Assembly (NCBI RefSeq): GCF_044647545.1
Contig: NZ_CP172818.1
Reading direction: 5' to 3' (one strand)
DNA length: 64,000 nucleotides
From: Escherichia coli
GTDB lineage: Bacteria > Pseudomonadota > Gammaproteobacteria > Enterobacterales > Enterobacteriaceae
The position numbers were made by a program. Below, piece after piece: positions 51,201 through 54,200 of the stretch. Positions within the stretch are counted from its first letter, which is position 1, and each line of letters starts with the position of its first letter.

Positions 51201-54200
51201 TCATGGTCGCACAAGACATAGCAGTTAAAGCTCACGTTAACGACCAGTTTGGCAACCCGGTGACGCATCAACCCGCGACATTCAGTGCAGCGCCATCCTC
51301 GCAAATGATCATCAGCCAGAATACGGTCTCTACTAATACGCAGGGAGTAGCCGAGGTCACCATGACGCCTGAAAGAAACGGCTCGTATACTGTAAAAGCA
51401 TCCCTAGCGAATGGAGCTTCACTTGAGAAACAACTGGAGGCTATTGATGAAAAACTGACACTCACGTCCAGTCCGCTTATCGGTGTCAATGCTCCTAAAG
51501 GCGCTACTCTGACGGCAACGCTAACCTCTGCAAATGGCACTCCAGTGGAGGGTCAGGTCATCAACTTTAGCGTAACGCTAGAAGGTGCGACGTTAAGTGG
51601 CGGAAAAGTGAGAACCAACTCTTCAGGTCAGGCTCCAGTCGTTCTGACCAGCAATAAAGTCGGTACATATACGGTGACTGCATCGTTCCATAACGGCGTC
51701 ACAATACAGACACAGACAACCGTGAAGGTTACTGGCAACCCAAGCACCGCACATGTTGCTAGCTTTATCGCTGATCCGTCGACTATCGCCGCCACCAACA
51801 GTGATTTAAGTACCTTAAAGGCAACGGTTGAGGATGGCAGTGGTAACCTGATCGAAGGTCTCACTGTGTACTTCGCCTTAAAAAGCGGCTCCACCACATT
51901 AACGTCATTAACAGCAGTGACCGATCAAAACGGAATCGCGACAACAAGCGTGAAAGGAGCGATAACGGGGAGCGTCACTGTAAGCACAGTCACAAGCGCA
52001 GGTGGAATGCAAACAGTAGATATATCGCTAGTGGCAGTCCCAGCAGACGCCTCGCAGTCCATCCTTAAGAACAACCAGTCATCACTGAAAGGGGACTTTA
52101 CCGATAGTGCTGAGCTACATCTTGTTCTGCACGATATATCAGGCAATCCGATCAAAGTTTCTGAAGGGATGGAATTTGTGCAATCAGGTACAAACGTGCC
52201 CTATATGAAAATTAGCGCAATTGATTACAGTCAAAATATCAACGGTGATTACAAAGCTACTGTTACAGGAGACGGAGAGGGTATCGCAACGCTGATCCCC
52301 GTATTGAATGGTGTTCATCAGGCGGGCCTGAGTACCACGATAGAATTCATTAGCGCGGAAACCAGACCAATGACCGGTACAGTGTCAGTGAATGGTGCAA
52401 ACCTACCGACAGCTTCATTCCCTTCGCAGGGATTTACCGGGGCGTATTATCAGTTGAATAATGACAACTTTGCACCAGGAAAAACGGCGGCTGATTATTC
52501 GTTTTCAAGCTCGGCCTCCTGGGTAGGCGTTGATGCTACTGGTAAAGTGACATTCAAAAATGACGGTGATAGCAATACTGTAATAATCACAGCGTCCCCA
52601 AGATCCGGTGGGCTACCAAACCCCCCCCCCTCCTGAATCGCGTTCGGTGTGACTATGATCATTTTCGGTGAGTATTGCTTTGATCCAAAGGCTGGTTTTC
52701 TGTGATGATTGACCAGCCTCAGAGTATTGATGGCACCACCGTTCATAACAGATCGGCATTACTATGCATAAGTACTGCCTCAAATTCTCGCCAAAACACT
52801 TTTTAATGCCTTTGCGAATTCATCCAGACTTATATTGTCAATTTTTTGCCCAACGGCGACTGACTCCGAAACATCGGCCATTGCGGGCCATCGCGTTTTG
52901 TAATCAGCATAAATTGCAACAACAGGGGTATTATAGGCGCTTGCCATATGTAATATTGAGGTGTCAGGAGTTATTGCCATATAAGCATCTTTTATAATTG
53001 CTGCTGAACGTTTAATCGAGGGTGATAAGGATAAACGGTAGACATTATTATAACAATCCACTAATGCCCTGGCTTTATCTTCCCCTTTGGGTCCATAAAC
53101 GATCACTATTGGCATATCTGTTTCACTTTGAATTTTTGCTATTAGATTTTCTGCAATCGATAATGAAAATGTACGTTCCTGCGAGCTACCTTCTAAATTG
53201 AGCGCAATGTAAGATCCTAACGATCGCATTTCCTCGCGTACCTCATCGAGTACATCATCGCTTAATGGCAATTCATATATTGACCTGACTGCCGGAAAAC
53301 CCGCCTCACGCATCATAAATGCCCATGTCATGGGTACAGGAGCCCGGAGATTCTGATCCATCCGGGACGCGTTCTTACACAAAGGGGAATAGCACTTCAT
53401 GGTTAAACCGACGACCTGGAAATTCGTTTTTGCTTTCAACTGACTGATAAATATCATCGTTTTCAGGTTCTTTTTACGCATCGCCTCTATACAAAGATCC
53501 GGCGTACCGTATTGCAGTGTTATGTTCTTCGCTAAATCTTTTATTTCTTTTAATGTTGCGTGATCCTGCATAGTCATTGTGACTAATGTTAATTTATTCT
53601 GTTCAAGTTTGAGCGCATTAAAGACTTCTAAATTAATTGTCGACGTAACAATTAATAGATGCTTAATTTTATGCAATTCAAGCGCCCGAATAACAGGAAA
53701 GATGGCCATAGCATCGCCAATCTGATCGGGAATATGTATGACAACAAAGTCTGTTTTTTCAATATTAAAATTATAAGCTTTATAATCGTAGTAACTAAAT
53801 GCAATACGTCTCAACAATGATACTAAAAACATAACTAACCTCGCCTCCCTACTGGTTATAATGCAATGCAGTCTATCAGAATCATCAGGGTGCAATTTTG
53901 TGCATATGCGGACTTTTATGTTTCATATCTCGAACCTGTGGGCCCTCTGCTTAATCCTTAAACAACACCAGCAACTCCTGCGCTTTCATCTTCCATCGAA
54001 TTTTTCATGTTGCCGTTAATCAGCCATAAAATCATTTGCAGATTCGCTCTGTCGAGGTAGTCTCATAAGGTTCGTTTATAGATCGACGGCAATGTGAGTT
54101 ACCTTTTCCATACTAATTATAAAAAGACAGTACAAACAGGATCATTATGGACTCCACGCTCATCTCCACTCGTCCCGATGAAGGGACGCTTTCGTTAAGT

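What the first reader, a model, noticed from the sequence alone, without database searches (positions are those of the whole stretch)
52780..53895. Apparently intact family-9 glycosyltransferase gene convergent with the yeeJ adhesin gene
The ORF is full-length here, whereas I recall the K-12 counterpart (yeeL) as a split pseudogene. GT9 enzymes are normally LPS heptosyltransferases in the waa cluster; an isolated copy next to a giant adhesin gene raises the possibility of an accessory LPS-core or protein glycosylation activity. This is speculative; known autotransporter heptosyltransferases belong to a different family.
Basis: inference. Interest (0 to 1): 0.3.

Follow-up and report, generated by a model that had tools for sequence, protein, structure and literature searches.

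The report
Orphan LPS-type heptosyltransferase gene yeeL
This is an intact copy of yeeL, an uncharacterised sugar-transferase gene found in almost all E. coli but knocked out by a stop codon in laboratory K-12; its structure, catalytic residues and relatives point to a side role in decorating the cell's outer lipopolysaccharide, not to modifying the neighbouring adhesin.

Summary
Window 52780-53832 (-) is an intact 350-aa gene, convergent with yeeJ. The K-12 copy is a pseudogene through one nonsense change (CAA>TAA, Q235*).

Distant full-length relatives sit in waa/LPS-core and Wzy-type polysaccharide clusters, and one is fused to an O-antigen-ligase-type domain.

The adhesin link is coincidental:
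- Adjacency exists only in E. coli.
- yeeJ is itself frameshifted in this window, and that allele is shared by 2043 genomes.
- All four intact/broken combinations of the two genes occur.

Best reading: an accessory, dispensable ADP-heptose-type glycosyltransferase acting on LPS core. Donor and acceptor are inferred, not shown. This is an ordinary finding of modest interest.

The parts
52780..53832 (-). yeeL coding sequence (350 codons plus stop): an orphan GT9, GT-B-fold glycosyltransferase
53833..53895 (-). 5' extension of the mechanical ORF back to a TTG, probably untranslated; it holds the Shine-Dalgarno candidates GAGG (53839-53842) and GGGAGG (53844-53849)
   Evidence: Sequence. All homologues and RefSeq annotations start at the ATG-equivalent M.
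53713..53715 (-). Codon for Asp40, the predicted catalytic base (equivalent of WaaC Asp13), within the invariant G39-D40
   Evidence: Invariant in the 36-sequence family alignment. Aligned to WaaC D13 by profile and by hmmalign.
53173..53175 (-). Codon for Arg220, aligned with WaaC Lys192 (a contact with the heptose of the donor)
   Evidence: hmmalign. K>R at this position is reported for the D,D-heptosyltransferase WahD and for H. pylori (PMC3559599).
52948..52965 (-). Codons for D290-T291-S292-I293-L294-H295, the heptosyltransferase signature D(T/S)(S/A)xxH
   Evidence: D290, T291 and H295 are invariant. They align to WaaC D261-T262...H266. Signature definition from PMC3559599.
53128..53130 (-). 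Codon 235: CAA (Gln) here, TAA (stop) in K-12 and in 771 of 5426 complete E. coli genomes
   Evidence: Direct comparison. Allele-specific 55-nt megablast.
52689..52719 (.). 8-bp perfect inverted repeat (AGGCTGGT...ACCAGCCT, 15-nt loop) between the convergent yeeJ and yeeL genes; a possible terminator hairpin, weak evidence
   Evidence: the repeat finder. The terminator scan did not call it.
46201..52636 (+). yeeJ, the inverse-autotransporter adhesin gene; here a pseudogene (context, not part of the GT9 function)
   Evidence: tblastn and alignment against K-12 YeeJ show the frame changing 1>3>2 at 50631 and 50954. The 50631 allele is shared by 2043 genomes.
54147..55463 (+). shiA, shikimate transporter; the divergent neighbour, syntenic with yeeL in Escherichia and Pseudocitrobacter
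   Evidence: Annotation of homologous loci.

Best explanation
yeeL encodes a soluble or peripheral cytoplasmic GT-B glycosyltransferase of family GT9 that is catalytically competent.

Proposed mechanism, by analogy with WaaC and WaaF:
- The C-terminal Rossmann domain binds an ADP-heptose donor through R220, E251/D252, D290, T291 and H295.
- The N-terminal domain binds a lipid-anchored glycan at the inner face of the inner membrane.
- Asp40 deprotonates the acceptor hydroxyl for an inverting transfer.

The most likely acceptor is the LPS core oligosaccharide. The position is probably outer-core or peripheral, because the nearest E. coli paralogue is WaaU and the key-residue pattern equals that of WahD. 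The result would be a non-essential, probably non-stoichiometric extra sugar.

The gene is a low-GC, horizontally mobile single-gene cassette. It is kept under purifying selection in most E. coli and has been lost repeatedly.

Shown: intactness, fold, conserved catalytic residues, distribution, selection, and independence from yeeJ. Inferred: donor, acceptor, and expression.
For: Fold:
- AlphaFold2 pLDDT 95.
- The family profile hits 3TOV at 1e-22 and WaaC/WaaF at 1e-12 over the full length.

Catalytic residues:
- G39-D40, N212, D290-T291 and H295 are invariant across 36 sequences down to 19% identity.
- They map to WaaC D13, D261-T262 and H266, with R220 at K192.
- This equals the D/R/E/D-T/S-S/A-x-x-H row for WahD in Table 2 of PMC3559599.

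Paralogue ranking with the family profile: WaaU 126 bits, WaaQ 101, WaaF 51, WaaC 50.

Context of distant full-length relatives:
- Vreelandella: waaA (460 bits, cut-off 438), kdkA (263, cut-off 142), waaF (397, cut-off 135) and further GT9/GT4/GT2 genes around the homologue.
- Litchfieldella: a Kdo/WaaP-family kinase and GT4 genes.
- L008 and L014: Wzy_C, a WcaJ equivalog, WecG, GT2/GT4 genes and a flippase.
- P0149 is a Wzy_C (O-antigen-ligase family) plus YeeL-like fusion.

Selection and distribution:
- dN/dS 0.08-0.22 between intact alleles.
- Present in 5342 of 5426 genomes.
- The 90%-identity protein cluster has 10,923 members.
Against: - In E. coli the gene is an orphan far from the waa cluster, with no partner genes.
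- NCBIfam equivalog models for heptosyltransferases I, II and III score far below their cut-offs (40 against 185), so it is not an orthologue of any characterised enzyme.
- To my knowledge, no published E. coli core structure has an unassigned heptose.
- It is dispensable: a stop codon in 771 genomes, IS1 insertions, and truncated forms in Shigella sonnei.
- No convincing promoter was found, and the low GC content suggests possible silencing. Expression is unknown.
- Some relatives sit in Wzy-dependent polysaccharide clusters rather than core clusters, so the acceptor could be an Und-PP-linked repeat unit.
- The residue aligned with WaaC E222 is ambiguous (G250, or E251 one position over).
- No functional study of yeeL was found.
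Confidence: 0.5

Rival explanations
1. YeeL acts on a different lipid-linked surface glycan rather than on LPS core. Candidates are an Und-PP-linked O-antigen, colanic acid, ECA or other exopolysaccharide repeat unit. It would add a heptose or another sugar before flipping and polymerisation.
For: Two of the closest non-orthologous relatives (33-35% identity) lie in clusters with a WcaJ-type initiating phosphoglycosyltransferase (486 bits, cut-off 411), WecG, Wzy_C proteins, GT2/GT4 genes and a Wzx-like flippase. The Pfam family Wzy_C of the fusion protein also covers polymerases, not only ligases.
Against: The same L008 cluster also holds an LPS-kinase-like gene and a second GT9 gene. The other relatives are in unmistakable waa clusters with waaA, kdkA and waaF. 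All structurally and biochemically characterised GT9 enzymes nearest in fold act on LPS core. The E. coli gene is near-universal irrespective of O-type or K-type.
Confidence: 0.2
2. YeeL is a cryptic relic. It is an intact-looking but unexpressed or functionless gene, drifting towards loss, with no current role in E. coli.
For: Repeated independent inactivations: Q235* in 771 of 5426 genomes including natural isolates, IS1 insertions, and truncated forms in large Shigella sonnei clusters. Low GC (38.8%) is typical of H-NS-silenced foreign DNA. No clear promoter was found. K-12 has no known phenotype from its loss.
Against: dN/dS is 0.08-0.22 at dS of about 0.07-0.12 between intact alleles. All catalytic residues are retained. 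The full-length frame is kept in most of more than 5000 genomes and in orthologues down to 52% identity in other genera.
Confidence: 0.15
3. YeeL is a protein heptosyltransferase that glycosylates the neighbouring adhesin YeeJ or another surface protein, working like Aah/TibC.
Against: - Adjacency is absent in every other genus and in the other Escherichia clades.
- The genes are convergent, whereas aah-aidA and tibC-tibA are co-oriented operons (my knowledge).
- yeeJ is frameshifted here and in 2043 genomes that keep the locus.
- All four intact/broken combinations occur.
- The family profile gives no BAHT hit at E<=1.
- There is no conserved Cys cluster.
- YeeJ is a type Ve protein with Ig-like domains, not a type Va repeat passenger.
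Confidence: 0.05

Closest known systems
WaaU (RfaK), the outer-core heptosyltransferase IV of the E. coli K-12 waa cluster
   Same: GT9. Best-scoring E. coli paralogue with the YeeL-family profile (126 bits against 50 for WaaC and WaaF). Both have an N-terminal extension before the catalytic x-G-D motif (D54 in WaaU, D40 in YeeL). Both carry the D-T-(A/S)-x-x-H signature.
   Different: Only remote pairwise similarity (phmmer 13 bits). WaaU lies inside the waa cluster, whereas yeeL is an orphan. The two coexist intact in ST131, so they are not alternatives. Position 192 is Cys in WaaU and Arg in YeeL.
WahD/WasD, the Aeromonas outer-core heptosyltransferases (Hep to O6 of beta-Glc)
   Same: Identical pattern at the WaaC key positions: D13, R192 (K in WasD), an acidic residue at or near 222, and D-T/S-S/A-x-x-H (PMC3559599 Table 2; YeeL residues).
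   Different: Not compared directly by sequence, because no WahD sequence was available here. The resemblance is a residue pattern only. The Aeromonas enzymes are encoded in core clusters.
WaaC/WaaF (LPS heptosyltransferases I and II) and the Veillonella GT9 structure 3TOV
   Different: 12-14% identity. NCBIfam equivalog scores are far below their cut-offs. YeeL has an extra ~28-residue N-terminal helix with a conserved D-Y motif. It is non-essential and lies outside the waa cluster.
BAHT family (Aah, TibC), the autotransporter adhesin heptosyltransferases
   Different: No sequence-profile match. Shorter (350 aa against about 400 aa). No conserved Cys cluster. Convergent with, not upstream of, the adhesin gene. 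The adhesin is of a different secretion subtype and is often broken.
WaaH (YibD), an E. coli LPS-core glucuronosyltransferase encoded outside the main waa operons
   Same: A precedent for an accessory, conditionally acting core-modifying glycosyltransferase encoded apart from the main waa operons. It is annotated as 'UDP-glucuronate:LPS(HepIII) glycosyltransferase'.
   Different: WaaH belongs to another glycosyltransferase family (GT2, my knowledge), uses UDP-GlcUA, and has a demonstrated function.

Membership tests
CAZy GT9 / Pfam PF01075 (Glyco_transf_9) | Sequence match to the family model above the curated threshold | tested here: met
   PF01075 at 29.9 bits against a gathering score of 22, covering residues 232-320 only. 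The family profile hits GT9 structures over the full length, 3TOV at 1e-22.
CAZy GT9 / Pfam PF01075 (Glyco_transf_9) | GT-B fold of two Rossmann-like domains, closest to solved GT9 enzymes | tested here: met
   [not shown]
LPS heptosyltransferases (functional class) | Catalytic Asp equivalent to WaaC D13 | tested here: met
   D40, invariant in 36 of 36 family members. Aligned to D13.
LPS heptosyltransferases (functional class) | Signature D261-(T/S)-(G/A)-x-x-H266 | tested here: met
   D290-T-S-I-L-H295. The third position is Ser, the variant listed for WahD and WasD (PMC3559599).
LPS heptosyltransferases (functional class) | Lys192 and Glu222 donor contacts | tested here: inconclusive
   K192 aligns to R220, as in D,D-heptosyltransferases. 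E222 aligns to G250, with E251 and D252 immediately after, so the alignment is ambiguous by one residue.
LPS heptosyltransferases (functional class) | Uses ADP-heptose and an LPS core acceptor | not testable with these tools
   Needs an enzyme assay or LPS mass spectrometry.
WaaC / WaaF / WaaQ orthologous groups (NCBIfam TIGR02193, TIGR02195, TIGR02201) | Score above the equivalog cut-off | tested here: not met
   40.0 against 185.3, 19.7 against 134.6, and 17.8 against 170.2.
waa (LPS core) gene cluster membership | Encoded within the core biosynthesis cluster | tested here: not met
   In E. coli it lies between yeeJ and shiA, far from waa. This feature is met only for distant homologues in Vreelandella, Zobellella and Litchfieldella.
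BAHT (Aah/TibC) protein heptosyltransferases | Sequence or fold membership | tested here: not met
   [not shown]
BAHT (Aah/TibC) protein heptosyltransferases | Conserved Cys 'iron-finger' cluster (my knowledge of TibC) | tested here: not met
   No Cys is conserved at 90% or more. The enteric orthologues have 0-1 Cys in the C-terminal 120 residues.
BAHT (Aah/TibC) protein heptosyltransferases | Gene co-oriented and conserved next to its autotransporter substrate | tested here: not met
   Convergent orientation. Adjacency is confined to E. coli. The two genes decay independently.

The most novel reading that the evidence does not exclude
YeeL could be an LPS-lineage GT9 enzyme that heptosylates a protein: the inverse autotransporter YeeJ, or another envelope protein. 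That would be the first protein heptosyltransferase outside the BAHT family and the first glycosylated type Ve adhesin.

A less radical novel reading, with a probability of about 0.3, is that YeeL makes a conditionally expressed, so far undescribed heptosylated LPS-core glycoform. It would be present in most natural E. coli but invisible in K-12-based work because K-12 carries Q235*.
Probability: 0.04. Interest if true: 0.7.

Novelty: new member of a known kind. Interest (0 to 1): 0.22.

Why it matters
If YeeL is active, most natural E. coli would carry a fifth heptosyltransferase-type enzyme that the K-12 reference strain lacks. LPS-core chemistry, LPS-dependent phage receptors, and serum or antimicrobial-peptide interactions worked out in K-12 could then miss a modification.

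The test is cheap: repair one base in K-12, or express the intact allele, and weigh the core.

The mere presence of an intact yeeL outside K-12 is routine pan-genome variation that is already annotated. The suggested link to the YeeJ adhesin does not hold up.

Tried and rejected
1. Functional coupling with YeeJ: rejected, on context, orientation and independent decay.

2. yeeL loss goes with the K-12 core type, because WaaU or WaaB makes it redundant: rejected.
- A concatenated waaU plus allele-specific query gave 1435 records and 1803 places.
- That means about 1032 waaU-positive genomes, 771 with the nonsense allele, and only 368 with both.
- ST131 carries waaU together with an intact yeeL.

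3. Phage-borne lysogenic-conversion or defence gene, prompted by the Erwinia aphidicola copy inside a P2-like tail module: not general.
- No homologue in 50,697 phage records.
- No PADLOC match.
- The other Erwinia copies are in non-phage contexts.

4. Plasmid carriage: the eight 'plasmid' hits are chromosome-sized or misfiled records.

5. A conserved neighbour among enteric orthologues: none beyond shiA-amn-mtfA synteny in Escherichia and Pseudocitrobacter, plus ubiquitous LysR genes.

6. Structured RNA in the locus: no Rfam match at E<=1.

7. Promoter and terminator scans: no more sites than in shuffled sequence.

8. Literature: yeeL appears only as a K-12 pseudogene used as an integration site, and as a flank of a secondary phi80 attachment site. 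No functional study was found.

9. Single-sequence search of the PDB: uninformative (E 1.3). The family profile was needed.

Full report
**Observation**

The minus strand carries an uninterrupted ORF at 52780..53895, 371 aa from a TTG. The likely start is the ATG at 53832. It is preceded by GAGG and GGGAGG and gives the 350-aa product that RefSeq annotates at the same place in other genomes.

The gene is convergent with yeeJ and divergent from shiA-amn, as in K-12. In the K-12 derivative DH1 the same 1053-nt frame is flagged 'internal stop'. The only disabling lesion is CAA>TAA at codon 235.

**How common it is**

- The locus is found in 5342 of 5426 complete E. coli genomes, and 4928 of them cover at least 80% of the query.
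- The exact window protein is in public collections on at least 1000 contigs, inside a 90%-identity cluster of 10,923 sequences. It is named 'glycosyltransferase family 9 protein' or 'ADP-heptose:LPS heptosyltransferase'.
- An allele-specific 55-nt megablast, which seeds only if the central base matches, finds the K-12 stop codon in 771 genomes. These include non-laboratory isolates.
- Other lesions exist: IS1 insertions and truncated forms in large Shigella sonnei clusters.
- Between divergent intact alleles dN/dS is 0.08-0.22 at dS of about 0.07-0.12. The intact gene is under purifying selection but is dispensable.
- The gene has 38.8% GC (GC3 36.5%) against about 50% for shiA and yeeJ. This is consistent with foreign origin.

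**What the protein is**

Sequence evidence:
- Pfam PF01075 is matched above threshold, on the C-terminal half only.
- NCBIfam models for heptosyltransferases I, II and III score far below their cut-offs, so it is not an orthologue of WaaC, WaaF or WaaQ.
- An exhaustive phmmer search of 1.84 billion representatives found only 487 relatives at E<=1e-3, with about 17 full-length ones at 24-38% identity.
- A 36-sequence alignment shows G39-D40, N212, D290-T291 and H295 as invariant.
- Its profile matches the GT9 structures 3TOV (1e-22), WaaC and WaaF (1e-12) over the full length. WaaC D13, D261-T262 and H266 sit on the invariant columns.

Structure evidence:
- The AlphaFold2 model is confident (pLDDT 95, pTM 0.92) and shows two Rossmann-like domains.

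Key residues:
- Merino et al. (PMC3559599) list the heptosyltransferase key residues as D13, K192, E222 and the signature D261-(T/S)-(G/A)-x-x-H266.
- YeeL has D40, R220, G250/E251/D252 (ambiguous by one position) and D290-T-S-I-L-H295.
- This is the pattern tabulated for the Aeromonas outer-core enzyme WahD.

Among E. coli's own GT9 enzymes, taken from the K-12 waa cluster, the YeeL-family profile scores WaaU best at 126 bits. WaaQ scores 101, WaaF 51 and WaaC 50. Like WaaU, YeeL has an N-terminal extension before the catalytic motif. In the model this is a helix (residues 2-15), followed by a D-Y motif conserved in the close family.

**Where relatives sit**

Full-length family members occur in Escherichia, Hafnia, Pseudocitrobacter, Erwinia, Pantoea and Rosenbergiella (52-96% identity). 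More distant ones occur in Halomonadaceae (31-37%) and Zobellella (25%).

Among the enteric orthologues no neighbour is conserved, apart from shiA-amn-mtfA synteny in Escherichia and Pseudocitrobacter. The gene occupies several unrelated contexts:
- the tonB-yciA region in E. albertii;
- between hchA and mtfA in the 72%-identity Escherichia clade;
- next to a Gabija-like pair in E. whittamii;
- inside a P2-like prophage tail module in Erwinia aphidicola.

It therefore behaves as a mobile single-gene cassette.

The distant homologues are the informative ones:
- In Vreelandella the gene lies between kdkA and a GT4 gene. The cluster also has waaA, waaF, two more GT9 genes and a GT2 gene, and the equivalog scores are above their cut-offs.
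- Zobellella and Halomonas citrativorans have similar clusters with four or five GT9 genes.
- In Litchfieldella the gene follows a Kdo/WaaP-family LPS kinase and is surrounded by GT4 genes.
- In two metagenomic loci it lies with Wzy_C proteins, a WcaJ equivalog, WecG, GT2/GT4 genes and a flippase.
- One relative is a single polypeptide of a Wzy_C (O-antigen-ligase family) domain plus a YeeL-like GT9 domain.

**The adhesin hypothesis**

No locus outside E. coli has an adhesin next to the gene.

In this window yeeJ is itself a pseudogene. Two 1-bp deletions relative to K-12, at 50631 and 50954, shift the frame 1>3>2. One Ig-like domain is missing and the 3' end differs. The 50631 allele is shared exactly by 2043 of 5426 genomes, so it is a lineage allele and not a sequencing error.

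In ten genomes all four combinations of the two genes occur:

| yeeJ | yeeL | Genomes |
|---|---|---|
| intact | stop codon | DH1, BE2-5 |
| intact | intact | O157:H7, GMF054 |
| broken | intact | 81009, NCCP15648, O91:H21, ECOR29, this window |
| broken | broken | TUM1886 |

The genes are convergent. The family profile finds no BAHT structure, and there is no conserved Cys cluster. Glycosylation of YeeJ is not excluded biochemically, but it has no support.

**Mechanism proposed**

YeeL is a cytoplasmic, membrane-peripheral GT-B enzyme.
- Its C-terminal domain binds an ADP-heptose donor through R220, E251/D252, D290, T291 and H295.
- Asp40 activates an acceptor hydroxyl.
- The acceptor is a lipid-linked glycan, most probably LPS core at a peripheral or outer-core position.
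- The product is an accessory, non-essential substituent.

The fold, conserved residues, distribution and selection are shown. The donor, acceptor and expression are inferred. Confidence is about 0.5.

Rivals:

| Rival reading | Confidence |
|---|---|
| An Und-PP-linked polysaccharide repeat unit as acceptor | 0.2 |
| A cryptic, functionless relic | 0.15 |
| Protein heptosylation | 0.05 |

**Rejected side ideas**

- Loss of yeeL does not track the K-12 core type. A concatenated waaU plus allele query shows about 1032 waaU-positive genomes, 771 with the stop allele, and only 368 with both. ST131 has both genes intact.
- Phage or plasmid carriage and a defence-system role are not general.
- No RNA family, promoter or terminator signal stands out. 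A perfect 8-bp hairpin lies between the convergent genes.
- The literature mentions yeeL only as a K-12 pseudogene used as an integration site, and as a flank of a secondary phi80 attachment site.

**Verdict**

The finding is a real, intact, already-annotated gene: an uncharacterised member of a known enzyme family (GT9) in a WaaU/WahD-like subfamily. An intact copy outside K-12 is the norm.

Interest is modest. The K-12 reference lacks an enzyme that most E. coli keep under selection, and a one-base repair plus core mass spectrometry would reveal its product.

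Noticed in passing
window 46201-52636 (frameshifts at 50631 and 50954): yeeJ is a pseudogene in this window. It has two 1-bp deletions relative to K-12, a 9-bp in-frame deletion at 46512, and one Ig-like domain (K-12 aa 1588-1693) missing. The 50631 frameshift allele is shared exactly by 2043 of 5426 complete E. coli genomes, including ST131.
   Followed up: yes
window 52566-52636: The 3' end of yeeJ differs from K-12. About 0.5 kb of K-12 sequence, encoding the C-terminal ~113 aa, is replaced by about 63 bp that include a poly-C run (52621-52630). The ORF ends ...GGLPNPPPS*.
   Followed up: partly
L004 7807-12924 (Erwinia aphidicola CP188307.1): The YeeL homologue (61% identity) sits in opposite orientation inside a P2-like prophage, between the tail tube and tail fibre/baseplate genes. 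This is the classic cargo slot. No phage genome in the GenBank phage set carries a homologue.
   Followed up: partly
L018 7216-16935 (Escherichia whittamii): Next to the GT9 gene lies a Gabija-like pair: a 690-aa OLD-type AAA/TOPRIM protein and a 584-aa UvrD-like helicase. Two large ORFs (818 and 1107 aa) with no Pfam match follow. The hchA-mtfA interval looks like a variable island.
   Followed up: partly
L005 12895-14199 (Rosenbergiella nectarea) and L014 3510-4856: HipA_C-domain kinase genes lie within one to three genes of YeeL homologues in two unrelated taxa. This may be coincidence.
   Followed up: no
L016 3174-4223 ('Candidatus Nanosynbacter' MAG JARKOR010000252.1); protein P0077: A 96%-identical copy of the E. 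coli gene sits on a contig binned as Nanosynbacter. An nr entry with 74% identity is labelled 'glutathione transporter [Rattus norvegicus]'. Both look like contamination or misannotation in public data.
   Followed up: no
E. coli genome hits H64-H77, e.g. NZ_OY019088.1 ST131: ST131 and related genomes carry waaU at 95.8% identity to K-12, that is, a K-12-type outer-core heptosyltransferase gene, together with an intact yeeL.
   Followed up: partly
window 52637-52779 (yeeJ-yeeL intergenic): The literature reports a secondary phi80 prophage integration site between yeeJ and yeeL in a K-12 derivative (PMC6016239). The interval also holds an 8-bp perfect hairpin at 52689-52719.
   Followed up: no
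[not shown]
   Followed up: no
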